A stretch of DNA of 64,000 nt from NCBI GenBank assembly GCA_964187785.1, contig OZ076409.1, positions 47,246,001 to 47,310,000 of the forward strand, given 5' to 3'. The notes beneath the pieces were generated by a model, which saw only the letters and a program-made list of their open reading frames with translations, made no database searches and was not told the origin of the DNA. Positions 4,080 to 62,438 of this stretch are shown here, in pieces. The DNA comes from Amphiscolops sp. MND2022. Its lineage: Eukaryota. The position numbers and the translations under genes were made by a program. Numbering within the stretch: position 1 is the stretch's first letter; each line of letters starts with the position of its first letter.

Positions 4080-4159
4080 TACTCAAAATCACACCGCGTT
4101 GCTATTTCATTGAATATTACTAAAAATCACACCGCGTTGCTATTACAAGTCCGAAAATG

Positions 4160-8248: not shown

Positions 8249-9658
8249 GTACCACACATTTTTTCGAAACTTGTGTTTTTCACTTTCAAACGGATGCAAA
8301 AATTATCTTGTTGCATTAGCGATATAACTCCTTCCCATACTGAATGATCATCGTCTGCTATGATAAAAACAGATTGGTTTCAAATTGATCAGAGTCTGTG
8401 ATCATTATTACTGTATGGTTCTAGATTGATCATTAACTGGTCATACATATTCATGAGATTCAAGCGGACCATAGTCTGAGCCATATAAATCTCACTCTTT
8501 GTGTTGTCTTGGTTTATATAGAGAACATTATATGTTCAACTTGACTCCGTGAAATGTCCATCTAATTGAAAGCAAGAGTCTTAACAATATTCTTCTTCCT
8601 ATAAAATTCTATATTCAGATACCTACATGGTTTTGGGTTCCTACAATTCGGTTGCTATACTCTTCGATTACCGCAGACGCGAAATACTACTTTTGAACAG
8701 TTTCCTGATGCTGTTTTTGCCATGAATAGTTTTACAAGGGTTAGAAAAGCGACTTTAGCTGGTTTCCTTCTAATGAAACTTTTCTTATTGCATCCAATGC
8801 TTTCAGCCTGTGAAATTTTACTATTCGATTATGATACATTTTGGCTCTGGCATTTCATACCTATTGTTAGAACACGGTATCATTCCGGTACGATTTAGAA
8901 ATATATATTCTTTGTCGTTTACGGGATTCGAAACTTTGCTGGAATTGAATTTAAAAACTTTGATCCAAAAAACGAATATTATCCACTACACCATTTACTT
9001 TTCAGTGGCTTAGATTTCTACCAGGCATTGCCGTGATAAAACTTTCAAAAAAAGAAACCGCTGCAACTAGGATTCCCTATCTTCCGAAAAGTAATAATGG
9101 GCCCAAATTTAACCCATGTTTTGCAAATTTTTTACTCAATTGTTACAAAAAGACCTAACCGAGATTAGATTTTGCAGGAGCAAGAACCACTGTTTATTCG
9201 ATCTCTACTAAAGTCACTGAAAGACAGTAGACTTTCAATCAAGATGTTTGCAAAGGTTCCGCAAACGTTCACCGAAGGAATGTTTGTGATTTCGCACGAG
9301 ATTTTGTTAAACATCGAGTGGAACTACCTACTGGAAGGTCTCTACGATTTAACGTTATTTTGTCTTGTAATTTCCGAATAAATCACGATTTCATCTAAAC
9401 AATATTTTTCAACCGAACATGAATTCATGTTGAGCCGGATGATACTCAGTCGGTTTTCATTCGTTTCCGCCAGGATTTTGGGGGGTTTGAATAGCCCTTT
9501 TTCTATTCGGGAAAATTCTCATTTCAGTCCATTGTAAAACCGAATCCGATAGTGAACAGCTTGGGACTTGATTACCTTGTAGGTTGGATTCTTACCCGAT
9601 GATAGGTTTCTTCATTGATTGGAGATTGTTATCTCGACCGATCGAATGCTAGTGTGTA

Positions 9659-43567: not shown

Positions 43568-44845
43568 ATGATACGATTCACTGAGAAAAACAACTTGATT
43601 TGTCCCATGCAATATGGATTCAGAAATAGCATGTCTTGTGTTGATGCTATCGCTGCAATAACAGAATTCGTTCGTACTGAAATAGATAAGAAAGCACAAG
43701 GCCAAGTTTGCTTTATTGATTTGCAAAAAGCTTTCGATACGTTGGATCATGACATTTTATTGAAGAAGTTGGTAGATTATGGTTTTAGAGGGAAAATTTT
43801 CGATATTTTAAAAAATTATCTCTCAGAGCGTTGGCAGTACATTAGTCATAACGGTGTTTGCACGAAAAAGCTTAAAATTGTGTCAGGTGTTCCCCAGGGC
43901 TCCGTCTTGGGTCCATTTCTGTTTCTTTTGTATATTAATGACATTCATTTGTGTATGGGAAATTGTACCATGGCCATGTTTGCAGATGATACAACAATTT
44001 GCAGTTCGAAACGCAAAGGTGTCTGTTCAATTCAATCAGATATAGACAATGTATCGCAGTGGTTTTGTCAAAATAGACTTAGTATAAACAGAGATAAATG
44101 CGAAGCAGTTGCATTCGGACGCGGTCATCCCAATGAAATTTTGATTTTAGACAAAAAACTACCTTATTCGAACGCGTGCAAGTATTTAGGTGTTTACGTG
44201 GACAAAACTTTGCGCTTCAGAGAACATATTGATTACGTCGAAAAAAAACTCAATAAGTTCTGTGGTCTGATATATCGCGTACGTCATATGTTCAACAAAA
44301 AGTGTCTACTGATGTTTTATAACTCCTTTGCAAAGTCCAAAATTTGTTATGGATTACTAATATACGGTTCTGCTGCCAAAACAAACTTGTTGAAAATTGA
44401 AAAAGCGCAACGAAGAATTTTACGAGCTATTTTTTTCAAGAAGAAATTTGATTCCCTACGTGATCTTTTTAGAACGAATAAAATTTTGACAGTTTTTGAA
44501 CTTTTCATTCTCGAGAACATCACAGAGCTTTTCAGGCAGCTGAGGTTTGAAGCACCTAAATCTTTCATAGTGCTAGATGCCAATGACGTGAGAACATATA
44601 CAACTCGTTGGAATATGAAAAAATTGATACCGGCGCAATACAATCGGACTGTTTTAAAGAGAAGATCCTTAGAAAATTTCCTTCGCTTAACTTATAATTG
44701 GTTAATGGAAGCAGAATTGATTCCAAAAGATGTGAGGAAACTATCAAGCTATCAAGTTAAAAAGCTCATCACAAGTATAACAACGAACTATGTAGTCGAT
44801 AACAAGTATCTCTTTGCATATTACTTTGAAAAGGAATTATGCTGA
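43568..44845 (+). CDS. Reverse transcriptase of a 5'-truncated CR1/L2-group LINE (element extends to about 45065)
   Basis: QYGFR, FIDLQKAFD, GVPQGSVLGP, FADD and KYLG motifs in an open 425-aa frame; 3' UTR stem-loop and AATAAA. Confidence 0.92.
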   Translation: MIRFTEKNNLICPMQYGFRNSMSCVDAIAAITEFVRTEIDKKAQGQVCFIDLQKAFDTLDHDILLKKLVDYGFRGKIFDILKNYLSERWQYISHNGVCTKKLKIVSGVPQGSVLGPFLFLLYINDIHLCMGNCTMAMFADDTTICSSKRKGVCSIQSDIDNVSQWFCQNRLSINRDKCEAVAFGRGHPNEILILDKKLPYSNACKYLGVYVDKTLRFREHIDYVEKKLNKFCGLIYRVRHMFNKKCLLMFYNSFAKSKICYGLLIYGSAAKTNLLKIEKAQRRILRAIFFKKKFDSLRDLFRTNKILTVFELFILENITELFRQLRFEAPKSFIVLDANDVRTYTTRWNMKKLIPAQYNRTVLKRRSLENFLRLTYNWLMEAELIPKDVRKLSSYQVKKLITSITTNYVVDNKYLFAYYFEKELC

Positions 44846-45515: not shown

Positions 45516-47018
45516 GTGAGTATACGACGGAACGCCTATAGTTAACAGTGAGATGAATATCCCTCATCATGAAACGTCAATGTAATATAAAATTTGAAAA
45601 CATTCTACCTTGAGCTCGTGATTCTATGGAGTTCATTAGTATGAACGCCCTGGTTTCCCTCTCATGCAAAAACCAGTTGATCATAGTCTGTCATAATGTT
45701 TTTTGTTATTTAAAAAATATATGATCCCAGGCTGATCATAGACAAGTCATACAGGTTTATGGTGACAACCTGAACATAGGCTGGACCATCTATGCAAATA
45801 ATTGAAATTGAGTAATTCTTAATAAATGAGCCTTTTTAATCTCAAAACTATAAAAATTGCAATGACTATTTTTGACATCTTAGGCTGATTTATCCACGAT
45901 TGGTGTCAAATGAAACACAAATCTCACTGAAAACTGAGGACTTCGGTAAAAGAAAAGTAGGCGTCCCGGTTAAGGCTCAAGATGCGAAAGTCGTTTAAAT
46001 ACGGTAAAGATTTGATTTTACGAGAGTTTGGAAAAATCTCACCGTGCCAAATAATTCCCCTAGGGGTTGTGCTTCGGTTTCAGAAAAGTGTTTTTCCTCC
46101 CCTAAAACTTCAAAAAAAGAGTACCCATTGGCTACATAAAAATTTTCCAAAAAAGTCGTGCAATCCCGGAGAAAACAAAACATCAAAAGATGACCCTCTT
46201 TTGCAAATCAATGAAAAAGGCGAAATTTTCAAAAGCTGACACTTTGGCTTCTTTGGATCTTAGGCCTGAAGTCTGTAGAAAGTATCGTTTTCAGTGTGAG
46301 CTGTGGTCTGAGGAAAAAATAGTCACCGTGATAGTCGCCCTAGTTGAAGCTGCAGGAACTTTTTACATGCTGCAGGCATGCATGCAGGGTAATTTTTTAT
46401 AGAACCTAGAAAATTCAGAGAACTTCGGTTGGTAAATCATGTACAATTACACTGCATTTTCCACTATTGCAATTAAATTTGAAAATAAATTACATTAAAA
46501 TACCGACACGATCACTTTGTTTTCACACGTTCTTTTCTCAACTACTCATCTGATGTGATTACCGCTTCTCAAATAGCACGCTAGACATGACGCTAACTTA
46601 CAATTTATTATGCGACTGAAGTTATTTTGCATTGATTTAGCGGTAAAATTGATAGCGCCTTATTTGCTTTCAAAATTATAACTGCTGCTTAATGAAACCT
46701 GCAAAACCTCAAGGCTTAAAATTGCCGCCAAAACACTGATGAATCTTTTAAGCAGCCTAATAAAAGTTAAATACAACAGGGACAAATTTTCGCATGAAAG
46801 TTTCCGTAAGAATTTTAGAAAATCATAATAAAAATTGCTGGCAACATTAAAGTACATGCAAAAAGTTCAAGCAGTTTCAACAAGGGCGGGCATATTTTTA
46901 TACAATGTGTTTGTATGATTTGAATGGTGCCATATAATGTCGAGACCATAATTAGCCTAGCCAGGAAACCTGGGTGCTTGACTGTAGGAACACAGCAGCA
47001 AGAGGTTGCAAATAATGC

Positions 47019-47669
47019 AGTAGTAGGGGAAATGCCGTTATTGGCCAACAAAAATTCAAAAAATCAAAGTTCACAAAATCCCCCCTTTTAGAGGCATTTT
47101 CACGAAACATATCATTAAAATTAGGGTTTTTACCATGAAGTAACAAACATCATGATGCATTTCCAAAAATAAATCATCAAAATCAACGTTTTTACCATAC
47201 CGATTTTGACCAAGATTTCAAAAGCCCCAAAACCCCCCCTTTAGAGGCACTTTTCAAAAAGAAATCAACAAAACTGGGTTTTTACCATGAAGCAAAAGGA
47301 CACGAACCTCTATGCTAAAAGCAATGCAATGTAAAAGCAATGCAATGTGAATGCAAGATTGTAGAAGCAATCCGGTATTTATACAACTAAAACTAACATT
47401 GTTTCGTCTCCTATAGCTTAGTGGTTATAGCATTGACTAAAGTTAAGGCTTCGGCCGGAGTGTTTGAGGTTCACTTCTATCCAACGTCCCCCAGTCTTTG
47501 TTATAACTTACATGCTATGGGAGAATAATCACCAATGGCACAGGTCTTAAAAAGGATAATCCCTGCTGTGGAAACTCTTAGTGGAACGGACTCCCGATGG
47601 GCTTTGAGTTTACCATAGGCATGTCAATGCGCGAAGCTGCGGGCATGCCTATGGGTTTTGTATTTTTCA
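47019..47669 (+). repeat. Polinton left TIR (about 651 bp)
   Basis: Reverse complement of 61488-62017, with about 125 extra bp (about 47196-47321). Confidence 0.95.
47407..47524 (+). ncRNA. Candidate structured Pol III-type RNA inside the TIR (mirror copy at 61632-61749, minus strand)
   Basis: A-box TAGCTTAGTGG, imperfect B-box GGTTCACTTCT, and stems TCTCCTATAGC/GCTATGGGAGA and GTTATAGCA/TGTTATAAC. Expression is not shown. Confidence 0.35.
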
Positions 47670-47729
47670 TACATGGGAAATAATTTTAGAAATGAGTATT
47701 CACACACAACAATGAAAAATAACTAATAA

Positions 47730-48155
47730 ATGAAATATTTGTCATGTCAATATCTCTCATTCAAAGAATTTGTTGAAAAATACAGACCAAAAAGCGAAGC
47801 AACTTCTAATATAAAAATAAAAGAAATCTTGAAACTCATGAACATAACCGAGTGTGGAATATACATGAGAGATGATAAATTTACGACTACCAGTGGTATT
47901 GTTAACTTACATCCAACTAAAGGAACACATTGGGTTATGTTTGTTAACGAGTTTTATTTTGATTCTTATGACTGTCCACCTCCAACTAATATACTTGATC
48001 ACATTAAAAAAGGTATCTATTCAGAATATCAAATTCAGAAAAATGATAGCTTTTGCGCGGCGTATTGTTTGTATGTGTTGTATCTCACAAATATAATTGG
48101 TTTCAAAAATGCAGTACTAAATTTGTACTATCAAACTTTCAAACCTAATAAATGA
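47730..48155 (+). CDS. Adenain-like virion maturation cysteine protease
   Basis: GTHWV (His), YFDSY (Asp), QIQ..SFCAAYC (Gln/Cys). Confidence 0.9.
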   Translation: MKYLSCQYLSFKEFVEKYRPKSEATSNIKIKEILKLMNITECGIYMRDDKFTTTSGIVNLHPTKGTHWVMFVNEFYFDSYDCPPPTNILDHIKKGIYSEYQIQKNDSFCAAYCLYVLYLTNIIGFKNAVLNLYYQTFKPNK

Positions 48156-48343
48156 AGACAATTAATACTTATTCAGCTCAATATAAATTTATCCCACAAA
48201 ACTTCACAGAACAACCCACCCAGAATCAAAATCGAAATCATACAAAAAATACAACAAAGCCGCATAAGAAAAAATTATCAAAAGATAGGCAAGAATTTAT
48301 AAATAACATTTCCGCCAGTGGATTCAAACAATTTCAAGTATAA
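48152..48343 (+). CDS. Small basic hypothetical protein
   Basis: TAAATG start; overlaps the protease stop codon; Lys-rich. Confidence 0.45.
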   Translation: MKTINTYSAQYKFIPQNFTEQPTQNQNRNHTKNTTKPHKKKLSKDRQEFINNISASGFKQFQV

Positions 48344-48376
48344 TGCACAGCTTAGAAAAAAGATTTTTTCTAATAA

Positions 48377-49668
48377 ATGGATCTATCAACCTTCGTAACA
48401 TATGATAAAAAAGAATCTCTTCTTTTAAATATTGCAAAATCTAATCAAGAAATTGTTGAAAATACTCATTCTAAACCACAAGAAACTCTAGAATTTAAAA
48501 TGACTAAACAAAAAGAATCTTTCGCATTTGATGTTCCTTTGGAATTACCTGAAAAATGGATGATGGGAGTAACAAGTTTAGAAGTGTATAATACAGTTTA
48601 TAATATCACTAACAGCAATAGCAAACTAGAGATTATTCTGAATGATCAACAACTCAAAGAACTTAACCTTGACAGTGAATTATTAGTGTTTGTTGAAGAT
48701 TTATACAAATCCTATTTTGTTAAACCTTACAAGTATAGTGAATTTTTAGAAAAGGTTAATAAGCTTATCACTAATAGTTATTCTAAAAAAAGAAACTTAC
48801 TAGATTAGATTTTACCTATTTAACAAAGATAATTGAATCACTCAATGAAATATATAAATAACGCCTCAATCAAGAAAAACTAAAACAAGAAATAAACCAA
48901 GAAAAAATGAACCAAGAAAAAATAAACCAAGAAAAAGAAAATCAGGAAAGAATAATTCAAGCATACAAAGATCACCTAAAACATGAAAAAATAATTTGGG
49001 AGGAAATAAAGTGGGAGGAAATAAATTGGGATGAAAAAAATCAGGACGAAACAACCCAAGAGGCAAAGCTACGCGAAACAACTCAAGAAAATCAAGAGGA
49101 TGAAGTAAACTAAATAAAGGAAATAAGTTTACCCCCCTTTGAAATTATTGAAAATGATTTCTTTGAAATAGAACTAACACCAGGAGTTTATGAACTAGTT
49201 GATATAAATAATGCTATTAAACTAAAAATTCATGAAAGTGATTATGATTTTAAAATTGATATGATACCCGACACAATATCAATGAAATCAGTTCTAACAA
49301 CCTCAAACCCTATTCATTCTAACTCCAGACTTAACATTCTTTTGGGTTTTACAAACAAGGATTACCCACCCGGAACTCACACTTCAGAAAAACCAGTTAT
49401 GATAACAACCACAGACAAAGTTCATCTGAAGTGTGATTGTGTAGATGGTTCAATTGTTAATGGTATACGGGAACAAAATTTATTTTCATTTAATTTAAGC
49501 GCACCTCCCGGATATAAAATTATAAAAGAACCCACAACTGTTTTGTACAAGCTGATAAATAAAACACGACTGGACACCATCCAATTTTTTCTTGAAGACT
49601 CCAACCACGACAGAGTTGATTTCAACGGGGAGACACTCACCTTCACAATTCAAATTATCAAGATTTAA
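48377..49668 (+). pseudogene. Minor capsid (penton-like) protein, disrupted, with a low-complexity insertion
   Basis: N-part FDVPLELPEKWMMGVTSLEVYN; C-part LKCDCVDGSIVNG..LFSF..PPGYKI..VDFNGETLTFTIQI; split into three ORFs. Confidence 0.8.
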
Positions 49669-49731
49669 GCAATAAACTTAGATTTAATACTAATGCGAAG
49701 CTGGGAAAAAATGAAAATTCTTTTCTAATAA

Positions 49732-50152
49732 TTGAGTCACAATAAGCAAAGCGCCTTCGGTAAATATAAAAATAATTCATATTGTGTTGGTGCAAAACAT
49801 TATTCCGCTACCACAAATATTCGTGGAGATATTACACAAAATAAAAAAACTGGTATGTCAGTAAAACTATTAAGAGGTACTTGCACTACTTGCACTGTAT
49901 CAGATCAAACAATAAATGGGGAAGGATTAGGAGATTTCTTCAAACATTTGGGTTCTGCTGCCAAGAATGTTGGAAAGAAAATACTCAATAATCCACGCCG
50001 CGCATTGGAAATAGCAGCAAATATTGGAACGGCAGCAGCAAGTAGAAATCCAAAACTTATTGCTGCAACTGCTCCTGTTATCATAAAATTTGTTCATCAA
50101 GGAAAGGGTTTATATTTTGGGGAAAACTCATTAATGTGCGCAACTTCGCATT
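49732..50152 (+). CDS. Probable virion core protein with a Zn-ribbon-like N-part and an amphipathic helix after GEG
   Basis: YCVG...GTCTTC followed by GEG|LGDFFKHLGSAAKNVGKKIL; the 3' end is probably frameshifted. Confidence 0.55.
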
Positions 50153-50171
50153 CACTAAATATATTTAATAA

Positions 50172-51203
50172 ATGTATTCAATTCATAATCGCGATGACTT
50201 GGAAAAATTAAAAAAATTACAAGAAACAAAATCTTTACTACACAAAGAAAGAATAAAAGAGAAACTAGGGAAGCAAGATTTTCATTACGATATGGAAGAA
50301 GTTTTTGAACCTGTTACTACAAAGCAGGCGGAAGCTACTGAAAACCAGAAACAATTATCTGAAAAACAAATACAAGCACTACATGATTCTACCCGCGCAG
50401 CTTCACAAACAACAGTACAAGCAATAGAAAATCAAACACAGGCAATTCGAGAATCGAGTAACGCTTTGAAAAAAAATTTACAGACATCATTTAAAGAAGG
50501 AATACAAGAATATGATGAAATTACGAATCGTAATAATCAGCTCCCTACAAGTCTTGTTAATTCCAACCTGGTTGATTCTAGTATTGTAAAAACAGTTTCT
50601 AATTTACTTAATGACAAAAACAAAAGTCAATTTAGTTGAGAACCAATTACACAAGACAACCCGCGCAGCTCCGCGAATTTATTCACAATTAACCCTCATA
50701 ACCCACAACAAGTAATATTCAAAGGTTCAACGATGACTTTCGAGAATGGGCAATCATATGATTTAAATGACCCAGATCTTCAATATTTTATAAATAATAC
50801 TCAATTTAACAGAGAAATATTAAATATGAACATAATTTATAATTTCTTAAATGATATGAAATATAACATAAATTATGGGGATAAAAAATCAAATAGATAT
50901 AATTTCATTAAAAATTTGCATACTGCTTATCAAGAGTTGCGAAGCCAGTCGAGAAGCCAATTACAGGGCTTCACAGGAAGTGGATTGAATGGTGATGCTT
51001 TACAAATCATCTTCCTCCCATCTGATCCAGATGAATTAGTGGATCAATTAAAACTTCTTTATTTTGAAAAATTAGGAGGAAATGACAACCCCCAAATCAA
51101 TGAACAAATCATAGCAATTGTAGATAAACTAATAGAGTATGAATGCATTACAACAAATCAACACCAAAATCTGATCTCCTCGCAAAGCCCCTCAATTACT
51201 TAA
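50172..51203 (+). pseudogene. Polinton coiled-coil protein with C-terminal LPSDPDELVDQL motif, one in-frame stop
   Basis: ORFs 50172-50639 and 50733-51203 share a frame, separated by TGA; GSGL precedes the C-terminal motif. Confidence 0.6.
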
Positions 51204-52205
51204 AGGATCAGTTTGTGGATTAAAGACCTTATAATTTGGATTAGATTCATTACAAATCCTGAACCTACTCCCATTTTTAACTTCCAATCTATTTACTAAT
51301 AAATAATTGAATTTTTCGTTCCATGCTTCTCTGCACAAACTGTTGAATTCCTCATAAGACATATCAAATCCTGCTATGTCCCAATGAATGTGTTCTACAT
51401 CTTTCAGTGTTTGTTGAAAAAAAATTATTATATTCGAATTGTTTCTAACTGTCTTTTTTGGTGCATCAAAATAACTCTGACATAAATAATAAACATCACA
51501 CAACTTATGTCTTCCTCTGGTAAAAAATGGATCAATCAGTTTTTGGTTGGAGTCTAACATATCATCAAATACTACACAACACTCCCTATACTCTTCCAAA
51601 TCCCCCACATTTTCTTCCACACTTACACCACCAATATCAATGTCCTCATATTGTTCCGGACTCCTCCTAAAAACACAAATTTGTTTCTCTGGATCTTCCA
51701 AACGAATCAATTGTAATTTATTCAACAACAAATGAGTCTTACCACAAAAAGATGGACCAACTATAAATGTTTTATTACACTTATTATCATTATCATTATT
51801 ACGTTTATTATTATGTGTGTGGGAACCTGCGTGAAGCTGTGAATGCTCCTGCGCGGGAACCTGTGTTAGCTGTCGCACGGGAAGCATGTCACGCGCAGCT
51901 TCGCCCCCAGTATGTGCGTGAAGCTCTGCGGGAACCTGTGTGGGAACCTGCGTGGGAAGCTGCGGATACAACTGTTGTTTCTTAATGTGGGATCTTAAAT
52001 AACTCTTATTTAATTCCTTATTGCAAAATTCACACCTCACTTTTTTATTAAAACATTCTTTCCAAGTACTGTACAGTTTACCATTTTTGTATGAATAAAA
52101 AGTATCACAATTCTTCATAATATTACATTCCTCACATCTTTTTTTATGACTACAATTATCACACAGTGATTTTTCACTACTTTTATTACAAAATAAGCAG
52201 TTCAT
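51192..52205 (-). CDS. A32/FtsK-like packaging ATPase with N-terminal Zn fingers
   Basis: Walker A IVGPSFCGKT, Walker B VVFDD, TRGRH, LCQSY; several CxxC pairs at the N-terminus. Confidence 0.9.
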   Translation of the reverse strand: MNCLFCNKSSEKSLCDNCSHKKRCEECNIMKNCDTFYSYKNGKLYSTWKECFNKKVRCEFCNKELNKSYLRSHIKKQQLYPQLPTQVPTQVPAELHAHTGGEAARDMLPVRQLTQVPAQEHSQLHAGSHTHNNKRNNDNDNKCNKTFIVGPSFCGKTHLLLNKLQLIRLEDPEKQICVFRRSPEQYEDIDIGGVSVEENVGDLEEYRECCVVFDDMLDSNQKLIDPFFTRGRHKLCDVYYLCQSYFDAPKKTVRNNSNIIIFFQQTLKDVEHIHWDIAGFDMSYEEFNSLCREAWNEKFNYLLVNRLEVKNGSRFRICNESNPNYKVFNPQTDPLSN

Positions 52206-52492
52206 TTTTTTGGTAAAAAATCACTTAACTTCTCTAAACTTCACTAATAATCACTATGTAATCACTATGTAATAACTATGTAATCACTATGTATTCACTA
52301 AGCAAATTTCACTAAATCACTATGTATTCACTATACAATCACTAAGAGCATTTATTTCTCTAAGATTAAAGAGTATTGTGAAATTTAGAGAAAATAAATG
52401 CTCTTAGTAATGCTTGGTGATTGTCTAGTGTTTCTTAGTGTTTCTCAGATCCCTAAGAATCACTAAATAATCACTAATTACTCAAGAAATCA

Positions 52493-52741
52493 CTAAACAT
52501 TTTGCGAAGCCGTATTCAGCTTATTTTTAGGAAAACTTTTTGCATGATCATATATAATTTGCTTAAAGTCCTCTTTAACTGAATCACTAATTAGTGGTTG
52601 TTGCATACGCTCAACGTAGTTGTCTATTCTGGATTCATTCACTTTTATTTTGTTTTGTTTACAATAAGATACATAATAAAAAGCTATGTTGTATGGTGTT
52701 ACTTCAATTGTCTGGTCAGACATCTCCTCTAAAAGTATCAA
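52493..52741 (-). CDS. Hypothetical; possibly the frameshifted tail of the second ATPase
   Basis: Lies directly downstream of, and co-oriented with, the continuation of ORF 52984-53718. Confidence 0.4.
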   Translation of the reverse strand: MILLEEMSDQTIEVTPYNIAFYYVSYCKQNKIKVNESRIDNYVERMQQPLISDSVKEDFKQIIYDHAKSFPKNKLNTASQNV

Positions 52742-52983
52742 AGTATCTTCAATCTGTTGTATTCATCACCAGTGAAAACATAACTTTCATAAGCAACGCA
52801 GTCCTCTGGACTCCACTTATTCTGTTTGCTAGAATCATAAATTATATTGTAGTTGTTGATTAGTATTTTGTACTTTTGACTCCTAGTGTCAAATTCAATA
52901 ATACCAAATTCTAATTGATCGCGGAAATATTTCCACCTAAGAAGGAAACCAGGATGTTTAATTGAATAGGTTTGTTTTATGGT

Positions 52984-53718
52984 TTAAAAAAAGTTATCTG
53001 GGTTATTAATTGTTAAGTATATTTCGAAACAATTCTCTCTTACAACTGGGAGAACATCCTTTGCATAGTGAGCGAGATAAATTACTTGAATCTTGTGTTG
53101 TCTACCATATCTAAATAAGTCTTCTACTTTTGTTTTCAGGTTTTTATAGGCACCTGCATCATCCAGTATAACAATTTTATTAACAAGTTGTTCAATACTA
53201 ATAGTCTCCAACTGCAGTAGTGGTACAAAATTTTGAGAGGGAAACTCACGTTCATCTTGTCCAAATACTACGTAAGTTCGTGGAGTGGCGTTAGCTGTCG
53301 CGTTAGCTGTCGCGTTAGCTGTCGCATGTGCTAAATAATGCTTCAGGAAGGATGTCTTCCCAGAGTCACTACTGCCATAGATTATAAAATGTGAGTTATT
53401 GTTATGCGAAGCTACGCGAGAATCTTTGATAACTCCCAGTCCATCTTCGCGCTTGGCTTCAATTTCCTGGTTTGTCAGATGAGAGTATTTAAACCCTTCA
53501 AATTGTAGCAGTTTTTTATAAATTGTTTTATACTGTCTAGGGCGAATATAAGTCCAATATATTGCAACAACAATACATATAAATAAAATTAAACATACAA
53601 TAAACATCGGATTTGTGATTACTTTATAGATTCGTGTTTTCTGAAACCAATTGGCTTCGCGCCAGCTATGCACAGCTTCACCGCCTTGATCATTATTCAA
53701 GCTATAATCATTATTCAT
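52984..53718 (-). CDS. Second A32/FtsK-like ATPase with an N-terminal transmembrane helix (3' frameshifted)
   Basis: FIVCLILFICIVVAIYW; Walker A IIYGSSDSGKT, Walker B VILDD, RYGRQ, YLAHY, VREN. Confidence 0.8.
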   Translation of the reverse strand: MNNDYSLNNDQGGEAVHSWREANWFQKTRIYKVITNPMFIVCLILFICIVVAIYWTYIRPRQYKTIYKKLLQFEGFKYSHLTNQEIEAKREDGLGVIKDSRVASHNNNSHFIIYGSSDSGKTSFLKHYLAHATANATANATANATPRTYVVFGQDEREFPSQNFVPLLQLETISIEQLVNKIVILDDAGAYKNLKTKVEDLFRYGRQHKIQVIYLAHYAKDVLPVVRENCFEIYLTINNPDNFF

Positions 53719-53741
53719 TTATATAGAAAAAATTGTTATAA

Positions 53742-54608
53742 TTGAACCTAAAACATCAAATCACTGAAGAAATATTCTCTCCTGTAATCAAGAAGTTTCA
53801 AAGAATTCAAATACAAACTCACTATAAAGATGAGTGCTGGAGTATCGATTTGATTGATCGCTCAAGTTTAAGCAAATACAACAAAAACTTTAAGTTCATT
53901 TTCACAATAAGTGACAATCATACTAAATATGCATGGGCGATTCCCCTCAAAGATAAATCAGGAAAAAGTACCACAACTGCATTCAAGATTTTATTGGAAA
54001 CTAGTAAAAGAAAACCGCACAAAATTTGGAGTGATAGAGGTAAAGAGTTTTACAACCAGACATTTTTACACTACTTAAACGAGCAAAACATTCAAATATA
54101 TTCAACTAATTCAGATATAAAAGCAGTTTTTGTTGAACGTTTCAATAGAACACTACTGGACTTAATCAAAGAACCAATGTACATTGAGGGTAAAGGTAAC
54201 TGGTTGAATCACCTTGATGCTGCATTACAAAAGTATAATAATCGTGTCCATGGTACAACAAAAATGACACCATTTGATATGAGTTTTAACAATCTAATAC
54301 CACGAAGCTACGCCAATCCGATACCTAATGATAGTAAAAAAATACCTAAATTCCAAGTGGGAGATTTTGTAAGAGTTCCTGACAAACGCAGTGTGTATAG
54401 TAAAGGTTATACAACAAAATGGAATAGAGATCTTTTCAAACTACACAGCATCAACAAAACAAACTCAGTAACATACACTCTAAATGATGAAAACGGAGAA
54501 ATTATTCAAGGAAAACACTATGAACAAGAACTCTTAGGAAGTAAATTCAACTTTGACTCCAACAACAAAACGTTAGAAAGTATGAAAATTTTCCACAAAA
54601 TAGAGTAG
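53742..54608 (+). CDS. Retroviral-like (rve) integrase
   Basis: DDE motifs WSIDLID, WSDRGKEF and VERFNRTL; C-terminal FQVGDFVRV..KGY..W; no chromodomain visible. Confidence 0.95.
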   Translation: MNLKHQITEEIFSPVIKKFQRIQIQTHYKDECWSIDLIDRSSLSKYNKNFKFIFTISDNHTKYAWAIPLKDKSGKSTTTAFKILLETSKRKPHKIWSDRGKEFYNQTFLHYLNEQNIQIYSTNSDIKAVFVERFNRTLLDLIKEPMYIEGKGNWLNHLDAALQKYNNRVHGTTKMTPFDMSFNNLIPRSYANPIPNDSKKIPKFQVGDFVRVPDKRSVYSKGYTTKWNRDLFKLHSINKTNSVTYTLNDENGEIIQGKHYEQELLGSKFNFDSNNKTLESMKIFHKIE

Positions 54609-54644
54609 TGTTCCACGTAGTTTCACAATAATTTTCTATTAAAA

Positions 54645-55886
54645 ATGAATTTCAATGATTCAATGCTTTCTTTGAAAAGTAAATACACACTCGAAAAACC
54701 TATTAATAAAATTGATTTTATTAAATACTCGCCTAGTAGTTTTGCGACAGTCAATAACGCCAACTCGAATATAAGTATCAGTTTACCAAGAGGAGATGCT
54801 TATGTTTGTTTACAAAATAGTTTCATAAGTCTAGAATTTGAAGTACCTTAAAACAATAATACAAGGTACAATGATGGTGATGAAATAAGTTTAGTCAACT
54901 TTCGGCCTGTTGCTTTATTTAGTGAAGCTAAGCTGACAACATCATCAGGCAAACACCTGGAAAAAATTGATAATTTGCACCCCATCTCTTTATTGATTAA
55001 ACTTCTAACTAGCAGTCAACAAACTTCTCAATTGATGTATGGGTTTGAAGAAAGTACTACTATCAGAAGACAAGAACTAACAAACAATAAAACAGAGAAA
55101 ACAACCTTTTTTGTGAGAATAAAACTAAAAGACTTGTTTGGATTTGCTGATCAAGAAAAAATAACTTATGGGTTGGGCTACACTCTTACGTTAAAACGGA
55201 ACACTAGCAATGATATGATTTTAAGAGGTGCTGGAGTGGATGCTGCAAAAGTAGTTGTAAAAGACATTTCATGGTATATTCCACACTATGTACCAAACTT
55301 AGAAAACCAACAACTTGTCATGGATCAGCTACTGAATAAAGACCCAACTGAGTTGTTTTACACGGAACGAATTATTTTTAGAAAAGTTGTTAACACCAAT
55401 AATAACTGGACATTTGAATTAGGCACTTCAGGAATATCGACACCAACTTTTGTGATTGTTGGATTTCAAGCCAGAAATAAAATTGATTCACAAACACACA
55501 ATAATGCACTATTTGATAAACTCCCAATTAGTAATGCTGTCTGTAAAATAGGATCAGAAAAATATCCCGATGATGGAATAAAATGTGACTTCGACCGCGA
55601 TAAATATGATCAAGCATACAGTGAAATTGAAAACTTTTATACTTTGCATTCTGATTGCATTCTACTCAATCCGTTTTTTGATTTGCATAAATTCAGAACA
55701 AATTATAATTTTTATGTATTTGACCTAAGCAAACAAAAAGACCAAATAGCTTCTCAACCAATCAGATTAGAATTTAATTTTAATGCTGCCATTGATGTAG
55801 CAGACTACATAGCATATGCATTAGTTCTAACCCCAAAACTAATAAGTATTAGTAGTGATGGACAAAGGCATTTTGACCTGATTTAA
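54645..55886 (+). pseudogene. Major capsid protein (double jelly-roll), interrupted near 54849
   Basis: MCP-like motifs IKLKDLFGF, ISWYIPHY.P, PTFVIVGFQ and FYVFDLSKQ; total size about 410 codons. Confidence 0.85.
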
Positions 55887-56054
55887 CATGATTTGATATG
55901 AGAAGAATGCTGGAGGAATGATAATGCCAATATTATAATAAATGATGATAATAATGTTATGATAATAAAAATGATAAATCATATTGCTAATAGTGTAATA
56001 AATGATAATAATAATAATTATAAAATATGTGTGTGTCAGTTATTACGCCAGTTA

Positions 56055-59000
56055 TCACAAAAAATGGGCCCGATCACATATCAGATTTAAAAGGTCTTGA
56101 TGATTCAATTTTTCTTTCAGAGTCCAAATATTATAGTATATTTCCTCATCCCGAATTGGCTTGCCATCCGTTTCACTAGTGCTCAATTCTTTATAATACA
56201 AACCCACTATTTTCAAACAATATATACAAGGACAATCACCTTGCTGGGTGTGTTTGTCCCATGGTAAACTTTGTATTGGATTTAAGTACAGTCTTTTGTC
56301 ATCAAAAGGATTCAAAGCTAGTTTATCTTGTTTCTGAAAAGTTAAATTGTGCGCATTCGAACGGATAGAATAATTAGTTGCAGTTGTTGAAACTGAGTTA
56401 AACAAACAATCCGTGTAGTCATTTAATTTTGGGGCTTTTGTATTCCTTTTTGTTTGGATTTTTGGATATTATTATAACTAAAAGAATATGATTTAGATCT
56501 CAAAGCTACGAAGTTGTCTAATTCAATAATTGGTGATGTTTCTATTTTCATTTTACCTATAACTTTCTTGTTAATAGTATCATACAACTCTTGACTGGGA
56601 TCTAATTCACTGAAATCAAAATCATTTTTAAAATATTCCAAGTCTTTTATAAGGTCTCCAGTTTTAATACTTAGAATGAATGAGTTTGTATCCATGTAAT
56701 GCAGTTTAATTTTATTGTTATAATATGGTTGTAATTTGTGATATTAAAACTCATACATTAACAATTTACTCAGTTCTAAAACAGAGAATCCCAAGTAAAT
56801 TGGTTTATCAAAGACTGTCTTTTCTTTATCAAACTTGTAAACACTGAATTCGGAGAAATGATTTACAATACCTTTAAAGCTTAACTTAGATTGTCTTTTT
56901 TTATTTGCTCAATATTGGTGTGGGGGATAAACTCTAAATTAGTCCGGTCTCTAACATTTTCCATAGTCTTACCAAAGAAAGCATTATTCATTAATTTGTA
57001 CAAACCTTTTTTAAAGTCTGTTTTTGCTAATGTGCGTTGTTGGGTGTTATAATCAATGTATTGTGCTAACCATGGACTTTGCTTGAAGCGGTAAACACAG
57101 TGAATCTTTGTTACTTTCATCCACAAATTCGTGTAAAACTTGAACATCCTGTAGTGCATCATACAATTATATTTGTTTGTTAGGTCACACACAAGCTTTT
57201 GGGTTGGTTTATAATTGGGCTGTTTTACACTATTCATATAATCTGAGAATAAATTTGAATCCGCTTTTGTTTGATATGGACATAGTGGAAAGTTTTCGGT
57301 TTTTTCTTTAATTTCTGCTGGATATTCAAAATCACATTCTATGAAGAATCCATGTGGGTTGTTGTCTGGAATAAATCTCAAATCTTCTACTATTTGTTCT
57401 AGTATATACTCTTCAGGAAAATATAGCTTTTCGAATTCTCCAGTAGGAAGGTATTGACTCATTGCCCATCCATACAAGTTATTTGCATCAATGTACAAAT
57501 GTTTAGTGTTTTCATCAGATTCAATATAACGAGGTCCCATTACACTTGAAATTCCTCCACAGATATTATTTTCAAGTAGTAGTAGTAGGTCTTCATCTTT
57601 TATGAAATCTAATTTAATATCAGTAAGTTTTAAACCAGCTTTCCATGTATAACCAGGTAGAGAGTAGGAGTACAAAGGATTGATGCCATACATAAGGGTG
57701 CTTGTTTCAACAAAGTTTTCGAACACGTCAGTGATTGTAGAACATCCATTTTTAAGTATAACATAGTAAGTTGTAGAGGTGTTGTAATGTTGTATTTGTC
57801 AATCAAATGTTGGGTTCTTTTGATATCATCATCACACGGGTAAGATTGTTGTAATGTTGACCAAAAGTCTTCTTTTGTTAGATTCAATGGTTCTTGGAAA
57901 TTATTAGGATTGAATTTCTCGTATGGATAGGCTAACTTCTTCTTAAACAAATCATCAATTAAACCCTCACTATTCATATACTTGAGAGTATCTAGCGATG
58001 CTATAAGTTTTTGTAGACTACTACTCAAAAATCTGTATGAGTCTAAAAACCTTAAACAGCCTACTTGAACTGATACATAGTTTTCTATTGACTTTGTTAT
58101 AATATTTATTGGCAACTTTAGATTATAAGCTGATGTTAAGAGTCCTTCAAAAATTAAATGACAATCATAACCACTGAAATTATGGAAAAATATAGGAACA
58201 AACGAACTTGACTTTTTTTTACAATTTAAATTACACTTTTTGTGGGCTGCTCCTCGGTACTTGCCTGTAAGATGATCGTGATCTCGAACTGTATCCTCAC
58301 CGAGTGGATTTTCACAAAGCCAGCATATGGTAAACTGTTGAAATGATTCTTGCGGAGCTACGCCTTCTTCTTCTTCGGGGGTCATTTCAAGAGGAATATT
58401 AGTTTCGAAATATTCCAATGCCAATTCTTCTAAAGTCAACATTTCATTTACAAACCATGTTACACAATCTACTCCAAAGTATGAGCTGAAATTATTGCCA
58501 AATGGTGAAATTAGATAAAAGCCTACTGGAATTGGAATTTGTTTAAATAATACTTTGGGCGCGATAGCTACCGCAGCTTCGCGGTCATCTGTTGGTTGAA
58601 TAATACATTCGAAATCTGCATATACTCTTATTGGTACGGGAACTTTCATATGATAATCTTCGAACTTTAAGTGATCCTTCCAACTGAATGTGATATTAGT
58701 TGGTTGTTGTTTTTGACAACGGTCAATGTGTTGATTGAGAATATCCTCAGAACTGAATGCAGTTAGACATCTTCTACACACCCATTTCATGTGTGAACTT
58801 TTATTTATTAGACAATGCAACTTTGTTAATAGGCAATAATGATTTTCAAATAACAGCAAGTCTATTTGTGGTTGATCATAATTCACGTTCGTGTGAATTG
58901 GTGTTAAAACTGTTTTTGTGAGTTCAAAAACATTTACGTTTAAATAATTTAGGTTTTCGAACTTCGGAATGTCTTTAACTTTCATGGGGAATTCTAAACC

Positions 59001-59861
59001 ATTTAAAATGAGTTTGTTTGTGTGCATTGAATAACTTGATGTTCTATTTTTATGATCCTCAACGGGAAAAAAGTGTGCTAGGATGCACCATAAAAAACAA
59101 AATTGATCATCATTTTTTATATTTATAATTGATTTATTATTCTTGTATTTTTCTGGCAACTCAACCCACGAAGAGGCTTGAATATCATTGATTTTGTATA
59201 TTTCTAATAAAACTTCTTTTATTTCTTGAAACACAAAACCTGATCCTTCTAATTGTTCATCATCTAATTTCTGCATTAATGTGTTGTGCAAAGCTGCGCG
59301 AATTGAATCTTGTGTGTGATTGTAATTAAAATCTGACTTAACCCATTTGTGAAATACAACTTCTTCTGCGAAGCCCTGCACAATAACTATTTTTGAAAAC
59401 TTAGCTAAATAACTCAATTGATATTTATATCGGGGAAAGTAATTTTTATTCAGTAAATCATTAATCTGTTCTTCAAGATGATTTGTTGGATTTACTCTCA
59501 GTTTAATGTATGTTTTTTCGTTCACAATTACTTCTACTCCAGACTGCATACTGAAGGCGAGAGCTGGTGCGAAAGCTGGTGCATTTCATGTAGCTTGACT
59601 TCTTAGCGTGTGGATTTCACTTTGGAAATGTCTTGTTTTATCATTAATGTATTTACCACAATCTTCACATCAAACTTGTTGTTTAGTTTTGTTCTTGTGT
59701 TGGTCAGAATTTAAATGATTTGACTTCTCTGATAGGGGCATAAATTTACTACAATTTTTACAATAATATTGATTTAATTTTTCTAAATGTTTTACTGATT
59801 TCAGATGATCAGACTTGAAAGCTTTTTCATAATCAGAATTACAGATAATACAGTTCTCCAT
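56055..59861 (-). pseudogene. Protein-primed family B DNA polymerase with N-terminal Zn finger and an endonuclease VII-like insert, fragmented
   Basis: Exonuclease motifs YADFE and FHNFSGYD; CWLC..DHDH.TGKYRG..H..CN; polymerase motifs YIDANNLYGWAM, KLMNNAFFGK and YMDTNS; several frameshifts. Confidence 0.95.
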
Positions 59862-60005
59862 TTATTTATAATAAATTTACGAATTTAATAGCAGTATATT
59901 TTTCAATAGTATGTTTTTCAATTAATGAGTAGTAATTTTTTATTTTACTTTTTATGTTAAAAATAGTGTATTTTCAATTATTGGTGTTAATTTTTGTTTT
60001 ATTTT

Positions 60006-60665
60006 TTATGTTAAAATTGAATAAATTAATAATAAATTATTGTGTGGTTTAAGTGGTATTGTTGGTGGTGTGTGGGAAGTTGCGGTAGCTGTCGCGCGTG
60101 AAGCTACGTGTGATTTTGTATGTGATGTTGTGTGTGAAGCTGCGCGCGAAGCTACCTGATATTTTTCAAATTGAGTCACAAATCGGTGATATTCTTTTTC
60201 ATCTATGTACTTATCTAGTGGTAAATAATTGTCTAAAGTCGCAAGTGTCTTCTGAATAATAGTGTACTCAAGTTTATAATTTTGCTCCTTTTTCTTCAAA
60301 TAACTGGAACAAATTTTAACAAGAATACCAGTTACACAACCAACTCCTGCAGTGATTGGAACAACTATAATGCCCACACCAGTGATACTTAGTGTAACGG
60401 ATGCTGAAGTTGTTCCTGTTCTTATGAGACAATCTGTTGAGTTAATCATGTTATTTATTAGCTTGTATTTGGTGTATTTCTTCTTATATTTATTTTCTTC
60501 CAATTCATAATATTTCATCATTAGACTAATGTTTTGAATAGAATTATTGAAACTATTTACTATTTGTAATTCGCTTTGCAATCGCTTATCTATCTTTGAT
60601 TCTACATCATATGGTGCAGAGGGGCTCATTAGTGAAGCCGTTGGAGGATAGAGTTTTTGTTCCAT
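60006..60665 (-). CDS. Coiled-coil protein with a hydrophobic helical hairpin
   Basis: SASVTLSITGVGIIVVPITAGVGCVTGILV flanked by Lys-rich helices; N-terminal LYPPTASL and PSAP. Confidence 0.65.
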   Translation of the reverse strand: MEQKLYPPTASLMSPSAPYDVESKIDKRLQSELQIVNSFNNSIQNISLMMKYYELEENKYKKKYTKYKLINNMINSTDCLIRTGTTSASVTLSITGVGIIVVPITAGVGCVTGILVKICSSYLKKKEQNYKLEYTIIQKTLATLDNYLPLDKYIDEKEYHRFVTQFEKYQVASRAASHTTSHTKSHVASRATATATSHTPPTIPLKPHNNLLLIYSILT

Positions 60666-60721
60666 TTATTAATCATATAAAATGAAATTTACTTCCGTTG
60701 GTGTTAATTTCATTCTGTGTT

Positions 60722-61469
60722 TCATATCAACAAGGTCTTTATAGGAATTTTTTTCAATGACTCCAGAATTGATTGTCTGGTAGAATATTCTAAATCAGAC
60801 AGATAATATTCACCATCTGAAGTAGGTATTGTTTTTCCATACTTTTCCAATAAGTATGTTTCACTGAAAGTTAGATAATTTGCAAAAGCTTGATCTTTAT
60901 TGGGAAAAGAATCAAACAAACCTTTGTTATAAAACAGTTGAATTATTTTGTTAGTTATAGTAATTTTATTGTGATCTAGGCTATTAAGAATATTATTTAT
61001 TTCATTTTCATTTAAAATCATTCCAGCTTGACCCACTGAACTCAGAAACTTTAGGTTACGGACTGTTAACTTTTCAAAACTATTGTTGTGTATTAAATTT
61101 AGTACTTCATTTACTAAAGCAGTTCTTTGATCGGTGAAAGATTTTTTCATATTTTGTTCTAAATTATTTATGGTTTTTGAAAGGTCTGAAAACTGGGAAA
61201 CTAATATCATTGAATAACTTTGTGTTTAATAAAACATCTTGAATTTCCTGTGGGTCTAGCATTTGTTCCAGCATTTTTTCTTCTATTAATTTCTCTTGAT
61301 TTTCTAGGTCATTTTCAAAATCACGTTGCAAATCTTCTTTTAATTTGGAATGGGTTATTTGGACTTTTTTTTCTTGACTTTGTATCATATCTTTTAGCTC
61401 CTGATATTCCCTCAGTTTTAGCTGGTCACTAGAATAACCAAACTTATGAAGAGACGGAGTTTCATACAT
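60722..61469 (-). pseudogene. Hypothetical coiled-coil protein split by a frameshift
   Basis: Overlapping ORFs 61164-61469 and 60722-61210; TAAATG start next to the TIR. Confidence 0.55.
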
Positions 61470-61487
61470 TTATTAAGATGAAAAAGT

Positions 61488-62017
61488 TGAAAAATGCAAA
61501 ACCCATAGGCATGCCCGCAGCTTCGCGCATTGACATGCCTATGGTAAACTCAAAGCCCATCGGGAGTCGTTCCACTAAGAGTTTCCACAGCAGGGATTAT
61601 CCTTTTTAAGAACTGTGCCATTGGTGATTATTCTCCCATAGCATTTAAGTTATAACAAAGACTGGGGGACGTTGGATAGAAGTGAACCCCAAACACTCCG
61701 GTCGAAGCCCTAACTTTAGTCAATGCTATAACCACTAAGCTATAGGAGACGAATCAATGTTAGTTTTACTTGTATAAATACCGGATTGCTTCTACAATCT
61801 TGCATTCACATTGCATTGCTTTTACATTGCATTAGAATCGGTATGGTAAAAACGTTGATTTTGATGATTTATTTTTGAAAAATACATGTTTGTTACTTCA
61901 TGGTAAAAACCCTAATTTTAATGATATATTTTGTGAAAATGCCTTTAAAAGGGGGGATTTTGTGAACTTTGATTTTTTGAATTTTTGTTGGCCAATAACG
62001 GCATTTCCCCTACTACT
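61488..62017 (-). repeat. Polinton right TIR (about 530 bp)
   Basis: Reverse complement of the left TIR. Confidence 0.95.
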
Positions 62018-62438
62018 TAATGCGAATGACACCTTTACACGTTAAAGCTTAGTTCAAACCTCTAATAATTACAAGATAATCTCGATGCTACTATTGTCAA
62101 CGAAGATAGATTTTTTTAAAAGCTTGAAGGAGCTCTCAATTTTAAAAACTGTTTCGCATTAACAGAATTTTTTGAAAATGTTGATTTTGTTCCATTGCAA
62201 GTGAACTTCGCCTATTTAATTTCATGCAAGAAACGATTAGATAAACAAACATGCGTGAATTTTTGACCTCCAGAAATTTTTATAAAAGAGCCTGCCTATT
62301 TTAGTTAGAGATTAATAAGATAGAATTTTCAATACTTTATAATGTTTAGGTAATTATTTTTAAAAATAAAATTCAAACTTACATTGACACGAATATTTTT
62401 ATAAGAAAATACAAGCTGAGTTTGATTTCATTGTTCAG

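What the first reader, a model, noticed from the sequence alone, without database searches (positions are those of the whole stretch)
47407..47524. VA-RNA-like structured Pol III candidate in both TIRs
Seen: tRNA-like head TCTCCTA-TAGCTTAGTGGTTATAGCA (A-box) and a weak B-box at about 47468-47478. An extended fold-back is possible: 47407-47417 with 47514-47524 (11 bp), 47424-47432 with 47499-47507 (9 bp), GACT/AGTC, and internal hairpins GGC-TTCG-GCC and GGAGTG/CACTTC. It is not a normal cloverleaf. Known: adenoviruses, relatives of Polintons, make Pol III VA RNAs with terminal stems that counter host defences. Inference: a viral ncRNA, or a captured tRNA-derived SINE head. The nearest T4 run is at about 47656, so the 3' end is uncertain.
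Basis: partly seen in the sequence, partly recalled or inferred. Interest (0 to 1): 0.7.

Follow-up and report, generated by a model that had tools for sequence, protein, structure and literature searches.

The report
Polinton ends carry VA-like RNA gene
A virus-like jumping gene with hundreds of copies in an animal genome carries at both ends an unusually well conserved, strongly folding stretch with tRNA-type promoter signals, likely a gene for a small RNA of the sort adenoviruses use against host defences, although no transcript has been seen.

Summary
A Polinton (47019-62017) carries in both terminal inverted repeats a ~290-bp cassette: TATA-like box at -30, full A-box, B-box matching 10 of 11 consensus positions 43 nt later, the 118-nt rod (z -4.96; opposite strand -2.11), three further hairpins, then T4/T5 at the inner end of the repeat. 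All 136 full-length genomic copies examined lie in Polinton ends; none is a free SINE. The rod is 97-98% identical between elements, against 82-93% for fourfold sites of adjacent genes and 84% for the outer repeat (position-ordered subset). Against: no significant covariation, one inherited A-C mismatch in 95 of 136 copies, no VA-type GGGU/ACCC stem, no homologue outside this family, expression untested. Best reading (0.55): a Pol III-transcribed ~250-nt structured RNA, laid out like adenovirus VA RNA with a TMER-like 3' extension, not a member of either family. Rivals: Pol II leader, cis-acting DNA element, swept relic. Ten literature searches listed no Polinton Pol III RNA; this scan's unchecked notes report similar units at Polinton ends in two other genomes.

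The parts
47019..62017 (.). Polinton/Maverick element, AGTAGT...ACTACT termini, 6-bp target duplication TAATGC (47013-47018, 62018-62023); several genes are split over more than one frame
47019..47669 (+). left terminal inverted repeat (~650 bp)
61488..62017 (-). right terminal inverted repeat (~530 bp; lacks 115 bp of the variable middle part)
47019..47375 (+). outer TIR: terminus plus subfamily-specific tandem repeats; 84% identical between elements in the terminal ~110 bp, largely unalignable further in
47376..47385 (+). TATA-like box about 30 nt before the fold; conservation between subfamilies starts here; spacing to the fold unchanged in 133 of 136 copies
47407..47524 (+). rod domain: 11 bp + 5x5 loop + 10 bp + 2x2 loop + 4 bp, capped by a flexible multi-branched apex; predicted start at G47406 or T47407 (inferred)
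47414..47424 (+). A-box, full match to TRGYNNARNNG, 8th nucleotide of the fold as in tRNA; part of a 23-nt tRNA D-arm-like stretch (47412-47433)
   Evidence: consensus from PMC12498455
47468..47478 (+). B-box-like element, 10 of 11 to GGTTCRANYCY (C in place of the usually invariant A), 43 nt after the A-box; unchanged in 127 of 136 copies (10 positions counted)
47532..47611 (+). two further predicted hairpins (47532-47571, 47572-47611), 95-99% identical between elements
47613..47654 (+). last hairpin: 11-13 bp stem kept (11 of 11 pairs in 111 of 136 copies) around a loop of 8-44 nt with 59 different sequences
47656..47667 (+). T4 and T5 runs, predicted Pol III terminator, ending 2 nt before the inner TIR border
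61488..61780 (-). second copy of the whole cassette in the right TIR (rod 61632-61749), pointing inward
47730..48155 (+). first gene at the left end, adenain-like cysteine protease (named from recalled His/Asp/Gln/Cys motifs; no Pfam hit), with its own AATAAATG start motif
61164..61469 (-). first ORF at the right end, with the same AATAAATG start motif about 20 nt after the TIR

Best explanation
The inner half of each terminal repeat of this Polinton family holds a conserved cassette that is likely a gene transcribed by host RNA polymerase III into a structured non-coding RNA of about 250 nt. Shown: TATA-like box, A-box and near-consensus B-box in tRNA-like register, a strand-biased fold, absence of T4 until the inner end of the repeat, and conservation above that of the neighbouring genes. 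Inferred: TFIIIC binds the A/B boxes, the upstream TATA offsets the one-base B-box defect (EBER-like hybrid promoter), Pol III starts near 47406 and stops at 47656-47667. The 5' 32 nt, probably taken from a tRNA 5' half, pair with a near-mirror copy at 47493-47524 (23 of 32 identical), giving a pre-miRNA-sized interrupted helix instead of a cloverleaf. Most likely use (inferred, about half of this reading's weight): the rod acts in trans as an abundant double-stranded decoy or Dicer substrate that blunts host RNA-silencing or dsRNA sensing while the element is active, possibly after release from the 3' hairpins; placement in the repeat gives two copies per element and keeps them alike.
For: Fold z -4.96 on the inward strand against -2.11 on the other; 255-nt unit -4.65 against -2.54; plus strand stronger in 13 of 14 natural copies, which are not independent. 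A-box plus B-box at 30-60 nt occurs 0.4 times per 64 kb in shuffles; the window has 3, two of them these copies. An A-box with an 11-nt terminal stem in this register: 2 of 16 A-box hits in the window (both TIR copies), 2 of 119 non-family hits near other Polintons, 1 of 93 in viral contigs. Host tRNA-Lys found by an independent Rfam search aligns to the head better than 991 of 1000 shuffles, tRNA-Ile better than 999. A-box consensus kept in 129 of 136 copies, including two inherited changes at degenerate positions. No T4 inside in 129 of 136 copies and T4 right after the last stem in 132 of 136, while 10 of 108 equal tiles of the element lack T4. Rod 96.4-98.1% identical between elements against 75-93% at fourfold sites of four adjacent ORFs and 83.7% at the termini; 97.0-97.7% against 82-93% and 83.7% in the position-ordered subset with the anchor removed. 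All 3 inherited changes in the terminal stem keep pairing through G-U, against 4 of 17 private ones (Fisher p 0.03, chosen after looking). Last stem kept around 59 different loops. VA RNA has box A in the terminal stem and box B in the apical stem (PMC7589676, passages).
Against: Covariation is not significant: 2 pairs with two-sided change, reached by 64 of 500 shuffles; covariation score reached by 20 of 500. The commonest subfamily has an A-C mismatch in the middle helix (95 of 136 copies), and a helix-end pair is broken in 11 copies; over rod and last stem 5 of 10 inherited changes keep pairing against 19 of 90 private ones, p 0.057. Substitutions are not depleted in paired positions of the rod (inherited 8 in 68 paired, 4 in 50 unpaired): conservation is of sequence, not visibly of structure. 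The B-box lacks the normally invariant A. Four of six host tRNAs tested gave no significant match, and the tRNA-Ile query came from a pattern modelled on the head. The cassette is absent from the ends of 9 other Polintons of the same genome with recognisable ends and from 41 loci of distant relatives. A TATA box at -30 fits Pol II equally well, and an AATAAA lies 20-60 nt after each TIR.
Confidence: 0.55

Rival explanations
1. The cassette is a Pol II core promoter with a long structured 5' leader (or a Pol II non-coding RNA ending at the next AATAAA) that serves the first gene at each end; the A/B boxes are leftovers of a captured tRNA piece.
For: TATA-like box 30 nt upstream; both copies point inward and an ORF starts 20 and 60 nt after the repeat; a leader would also be strand-biased and conserved.
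Against: The first genes carry the same AATAAATG start motif as internal genes; the leader would hold 8 upstream ATGs within the repeat; A-box changes stay within consensus, T4 is avoided for 249 nt and appears exactly at the repeat border.
Confidence: 0.17
2. The cassette works mainly in cis as DNA: TFIIIC/Pol III-bound boxes at both ends insulate the integrated element from flanking chromatin, or the hairpins act in the single strand displaced during protein-primed replication (origin, packaging or template-switch signals).
For: Symmetric position at both ends; sequence-level rather than pair-level conservation; B-box/TFIIIC boundaries in inverted repeats are described for fission yeast (PMC4502379, PMC7474672; search listing and start of abstract only); a cis effect of the promoter is left open even for TMERs (PMC4337559, passages); near-perfect palindromic last stem and GCGAAGC motifs enriched in this family.
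Against: As DNA the rod folds weakly (-13.2 and -11.3 kcal/mol); inherited changes are mostly G-U type on the inward strand; a barrier does not need a 32-bp rod; other Polintons of the genome lack it.
Confidence: 0.16
3. A tRNA- or SINE-derived piece with a chance inverted duplication was captured once, has no function, and looks conserved because it recently spread among subfamilies by recombination and repeat homogenisation.
For: Only one family has it; no two-sided covariation; copies 97% alike; paired TIR cassettes 92.5-100% alike in 33 elements; no older diverged class found (next best match to the most diverged copy is 85%, among ordinary copies).
Against: Both flanks (outer repeat, first genes) are more diverged in the same pairs of elements: rod more alike than the protease gene in 315 of 325 pairs and than the terminus in 884 of 903; boundaries coincide with TATA and terminator; no free SINE family, poly-A tail or internal target duplication seen.
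Confidence: 0.12

Closest known systems
Adenovirus VA RNAI/II (PMC7589676, passages read)
   Same: Intragenic A and B boxes, A-box in the terminal stem and B-box in the apical part, 5'-3' terminal stem, long interrupted helix, carried by a linear dsDNA element with protein-primed polymerase and jelly-roll capsid. The VA B-box consensus in PMC12498455 Table 1 allows C at the position where this one has C.
   Different: No GGGU/ACCC stem, terminator about 130 nt beyond the terminal stem, three extra hairpins, upstream TATA, two copies in the terminal repeats, no Rfam VA match, non-mammalian host context unknown.
Murine gammaherpesvirus 68 TMERs (PMC4337559, PMC8223928, passages read)
   Same: tRNA-like 5' part followed by 3' hairpins in one Pol III unit, near a genome end.
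   Different: 5' part is predicted to be a rod, not a cloverleaf (D and anticodon pairs at probability 0.004 or less); anticodon loop would have 4 nt; 3' stems of 6-13 bp are short for pre-miRNAs; single A-box.
EBV EBER1/2 (PMC8223928, figure legend passage read)
   Same: Hybrid promoter: upstream TATA-like box plus internal A/B boxes.
   Different: No sequence or Rfam similarity; ATF/Sp1 upstream sites not tested; longer.
tRNA-derived SINE heads; rodent BC1 RNA; vault RNA/nc886 (recalled, no call)
   Same: tRNA-type boxes retained while the RNA refolds into a rod or panhandle.
   Different: No free copies, no poly-A or LINE-like tail; no Rfam match to vault or tRNA models at E up to 10.
Polinton/Maverick elements, adintoviruses (PMC8502044, passages read)
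   Same: Integrase, pPolB, double jelly-roll capsid, A32-like ATPases, protease, AGTAGT termini, 6-bp target duplication.
   Different: No non-coding RNA gene is mentioned in the passages seen (the whole word 'RNA' occurs once in that paper); this family's polymerase is only about 25% identical to those of other Polintons in the same genome.

Membership tests
Pol III type 2 (tRNA-type) transcription unit | A-box TRGYNNARNNG close to the start | tested here: met
   Full match at the 8th nucleotide of the fold; 129 of 136 copies
Pol III type 2 (tRNA-type) transcription unit | B-box GGTTCRANYCY 30-60 nt downstream | tested here: inconclusive
   10 of 11, 43 nt; the mismatch hits the conserved A; C occurs there in the VA consensus of PMC12498455 Table 1
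Pol III type 2 (tRNA-type) transcription unit | oligo-T terminator, none inside | tested here: met
   129 of 136 without internal T4; 132 of 136 with T4 after the last stem
Pol III type 2 (tRNA-type) transcription unit | transcription by Pol III | not testable with these tools
   needs RNA data or in vitro transcription
Adenovirus VA RNA | box A in terminal stem, box B in apical stem | tested here: met
   fold; definition PMC7589676; the apical fold is ambiguous
Adenovirus VA RNA | complementary GGGU-ACCC in central domain | tested here: not met
   ACCC in 1 of 136 rods
Adenovirus VA RNA | U4 terminator at the 3' end of the terminal stem | tested here: not met
   first T4 is 132 nt after 47524
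Adenovirus VA RNA | Rfam VA model match | tested here: not met
   none at E up to 10
Adenovirus VA RNA | PKR/Dicer/Exportin-5 binding | not testable with these tools
   biochemistry
TMER (tRNA-miRNA-encoded RNA) | 5' tRNA-like cloverleaf | tested here: not met
   ARAGORN 0; D and anticodon pair probability 0.004 or less; an inherited change breaks a D-stem pair in 11 copies; pair counts alone do not separate the two folds
TMER (tRNA-miRNA-encoded RNA) | 3' pre-miRNA hairpins giving mature miRNAs | tested here: inconclusive
   three hairpins present but stems 6-13 bp; no small-RNA data
tRNA-derived SINE | dispersed free copies with own tail and target duplications | tested here: not met
   30 of 30 first head matches by position and 136 of 136 full-length copies are in Polinton ends; 298 of the 398 exact head matches were not listed
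tRNA-derived SINE | tRNA-related head | tested here: met
   20 of 23 to host tRNA-Ile, 2 of 6 tRNAs significant; limited to the 5' quarter
Polinton/Maverick (carrier element) | TIRs, 6-bp TSD, pPolB, rve integrase, capsid, ATPase, protease | tested here: met
   TIR/TSD; DJR capsid E 2e-22 and A32 ATPases below cut-off; polymerase by tblastn to PF03175-positive loci, E to 7e-42; integrase and protease by recalled motifs

The most novel reading that the evidence does not exclude
Polintons, relatives and proposed ancestors of adenoviruses, have independently built a VA/TMER-like Pol III RNA gene from half a host tRNA, duplicated it in their terminal repeats, and use the rod-shaped RNA in trans to blunt small-RNA or dsRNA defences of an animal host; this would be the first non-coding RNA gene of a Polinton and a cause of this family's expansion to hundreds of copies.
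Probability: 0.3. Interest if true: 0.85.

Novelty: new variant of a known kind. Interest (0 to 1): 0.62.

Why it matters
Polintons are described as protein-coding virus-like elements. A selected Pol III RNA gene in their termini would extend the VA/EBER/TMER strategy to integrating linear DNA viruses of animals, offer a living model for the hypothesis that VA RNA arose from tRNA (stated in PMC7589676), and give an easy marker and a direct test (one northern blot, one promoter reporter) of whether integrated Polintons are transcriptionally active and how they cope with host silencing.

Tried and rejected
Expression: no RNA holder was listed for 47300-48200; no evidence either way. Homologues: capsid query found nothing in viral contigs or metagenomes; a head pattern gave one unrelated phage hit; a protease alignment gave 38 distant viral loci (23-41%) and 3 metagenome contigs (46-55%) in which the protease is internal and no terminus is held; blastn and nhmmer with the window cassette found nothing in these 41 loci. 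No covariance-model search was run, so remote structural homologues could be missed. Other Polinton families: ends were recognised in 9 of 10 loci fetched, none has the cassette; the one hit (L132) is a neighbouring copy of this family. Older subfamilies: the most diverged copy (L229) has no close kin. Cloverleaf: rejected on energy, not on pair counts. tRNA-Lys anticodon arm split by an intron-like insert: noticed by eye, weak, dropped. 27-codon ORF at 47535: shared changes are non-synonymous and 1-nt deletions occur, so rejected. My first reading of three 'consistent' changes misread columns and was corrected in entry 3; the H7 rows were off register and replaced. Rows dropped: of 153 loci, L211 (tail without rod) and L257 (internal deletion) gave no hit of 200 nt; 151 hits collapsed to 136 distinct copies in 103 elements; the pair-count alignment used 66 of the 122 indel-free rods, picked by hand to favour distinct rows. 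Copies were ranked by likeness to the query, hence the separate subset. Literature: searches (Polinton with Pol III, tRNA-like, VA RNA, small RNA, noncoding) listed no paper on a Polinton-encoded RNA, judged from listings and abstract starts only; subscription journals and Repbase reports are not covered; no supplements were read.

Full report
Setting. The finding lies in the left terminal inverted repeat (TIR) of a 15-kb Polinton, 47019-62017, with AGTAGT termini and a 6-bp target duplication. It encodes a double jelly-roll capsid protein (Pfam E 2e-22), two A32-like ATPases (below cut-off), a protein-primed polymerase, an integrase and a protease; the last two are named from recalled motifs, and several genes are split over frames. 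The TIRs are about 650 and 530 bp.

Observation. The 118-nt fold is as described: -43.3 kcal/mol, z -4.96, 0 of 200 shuffles, against z -2.11 for the opposite strand. The terminal, middle and short third helices are near certain in the ensemble; the apex has several folds. The ends were chosen to fit the fold, and 2 of 120 arbitrary windows nearby reach a similar z, so other evidence is needed. ARAGORN and Rfam give nothing.

The real unit. Comparison of sibling TIRs shows a sharply bounded block from a TATA-like box at 47376-47385 to T4/T5 runs at 47656-47667, two bases before the inner TIR border; upstream of it subfamilies carry different tandem repeats. The 255-nt stretch folds into the rod plus three hairpins (z -4.65; opposite strand -2.54). 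The A-box matches TRGYNNARNNG fully and starts at the 8th nucleotide of the fold, the tRNA register; the B-box matches 10 of 11 of GGTTCRANYCY 43 nt later (consensus from PMC12498455, passages). Such a pair arises 0.4 times per 64 kb in shuffles, and two of the three hits in the window are these copies. An A-box with an 11-nt terminal stem in register is seen in 2 of 16 A-box hits in the window, 3 of 120 near other Polintons (one being this family) and 1 of 93 in viral contigs. The head aligns with host tRNA-Ile at 20 of 23 (1 of 1000 shuffles; query found by a pattern modelled on the head) and tRNA-Lys (9 of 1000; found independently); four other tRNAs gave 74-242 of 1000. The last 32 nt of the rod are a near mirror image of the first 32 (23 identical, no gap).

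Copies. The genome holds 398 exact matches to an 18-nt head motif, 488 to an 18-nt tail motif and 661-664 candidates by DNA search. The first 30 head matches by position are all in Polinton ends. Of 136 distinct full-length copies (103 elements), 133 are followed by sequence matching the window element's interior, 2 by interior shared with siblings, and 1 has the outer TIR upstream and foreign sequence downstream. No free SINE was seen; most exact matches were not inspected. Nine other Polintons of the genome with recognisable ends lack the cassette, and no homologue was found in 41 loci of distant relatives, which hold no comparable terminus or are very remote.

Selection. Between elements the rod is 96.4-98.1% identical, against 75.3, 82.3, 92.9 and 91.1% at fourfold sites of four adjacent ORFs and 83.7% at the terminus. 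In the position-ordered subset of 10-19 elements, with the anchor removed, the figures are 97.0-97.7% against 82.0, 84.4, 93.2, 88.8 and 83.7%. TATA spacing is fixed in 133 of 136, the A-box consensus in 129, the B-box in 127; T4 is absent inside in 129 and present after the last stem in 132, while 10 of 108 equal tiles of the element lack T4. The last stem is kept around 59 different loops of 8-44 nt.

Structure-level evidence is weak. On 59 distinct rods there are 2 pairs with a two-sided change (64 of 500 shuffles reach this) and the covariation score is reached by 20 of 500. All three inherited changes in the terminal stem keep pairing (against 4 of 17 private ones, p 0.03, post hoc), but the commonest subfamily has an A-C mismatch in the middle helix (95 of 136) and a helix-end pair is lost in 11 copies; overall 5 of 10 inherited against 19 of 90 private changes keep pairing (p 0.057). 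A cloverleaf-like alternative scores equally on pair counts but has negligible probability. The copies are too alike for this test to have power.

Mechanism. The best reading is a hybrid Pol III gene: upstream TATA plus internal A/B boxes, start near 47406, stop at 47656-47667, giving a ~250-nt RNA whose 5' domain is a 32-nt-long interrupted helix with a branched apex. The layout matches VA RNA (box A in the terminal stem, box B apical; PMC7589676, passages), the upstream box recalls EBER (PMC8223928, passages), and the 3' hairpins recall TMERs (PMC4337559, passages). It fails membership of VA (no GGGU/ACCC, no terminator at the stem, no Rfam match) and of TMER (no cloverleaf). A role as dsRNA decoy or Dicer substrate is inferred from analogy only. 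Rivals are a Pol II leader for the inward first genes (but these have the same start motif as internal genes, and the leader would hold 8 upstream ATGs), a cis-acting DNA element such as a TFIIIC barrier (fission-yeast precedent seen as search listing only) or single-strand signal (DNA fold weak), and a swept relic.

Novelty. Six searches combining Polinton or Maverick with Pol III, tRNA-like, VA RNA, small RNA or noncoding listed no paper on a Polinton-encoded RNA (listings and abstract starts only). The adintovirus paper (PMC8502044, passages) mentions none in what I saw. This scan's earlier, unchecked notes describe Pol III units and a folded RNA candidate at Polinton ends in two other genomes; no sequence look-alike was found, and I could not test them. 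A note on gene-by-gene promoters in a Polinton of this genome prompted the check.

Verdict. A real, selected, promoter-bearing structured cassette in Polinton termini; likely a Pol III non-coding RNA gene (0.55); a new variant of a known kind; interest 0.62, limited by missing expression data and missing covariation.

Noticed in passing
window 47631, 49695, 51897, 53406, 58575, 60146, 61519; sibling TIRs L077, L087, L015, L231, L211: A 12-nt near-palindrome containing GCGAAGC occurs as a presence/absence insertion at several unrelated sites of sibling copies and in frame inside ORFs. The 7-mer occurs 7.9 times per 10 kb in this family's capsid loci against 0.7 and 1.5 near other Polintons. GCGNAGC/GCGNNAGC is the known ultra-stable DNA mini-hairpin (PMC13037366, start of abstract); a family-specific micro-insertion mechanism is unexplained.
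   Followed up: partly
window 47727, 48149, 48374, 50169, 53721, 59864, 60668, 61472: Many genes of the element begin with (T)AATAAATG or ATATAAATG, a polyadenylation-like hexamer overlapping a TAAATG start that recalls poxvirus late promoters (recalled).
   Followed up: partly
window 51192-52205 and 52984-53718 (minus): Two A32-like ATPase genes in one Polinton, both below the Pfam cut-off; the polymerase N-terminal part has an endonuclease-VII-like zinc finger hit (E 2e-4).
   Followed up: no
G000, L092-L161: At least eight further Polinton families of 13.5-17 kb share AGTAGT termini followed by a G run; their polymerases are 62-77% alike in DNA and about 25% identical in protein to the window family. 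One is inserted into a copy of the window family (L132).
   Followed up: partly
window about 8930-9000 (minus); L141, L145, L153: Other degenerate tRNA-like A/B-box heads lie outside Polintons, two of them next to a common repeat; the L153 head has a TATA-like box about 30 nt upstream.
   Followed up: no
G000:C3 from 50.90 Mb (L164-L176); C7 5.23-5.34 Mb (L180-L201): Long tandem arrays of tRNA-Ile and tRNA-Lys genes with many anticodon variants, including TTA suppressor-type anticodons (9 calls in overlapping loci).
   Followed up: no
window 2191-3638 within 1852-4081: Large fold-back element: 665-nt arms, 99% complementary, 118 nt apart, inside further inverted arms.
   Followed up: no
window 43568-44845: Reverse transcriptase ORF (RVT_1, E 2e-29) 2 kb left of the Polinton.
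   Followed up: no
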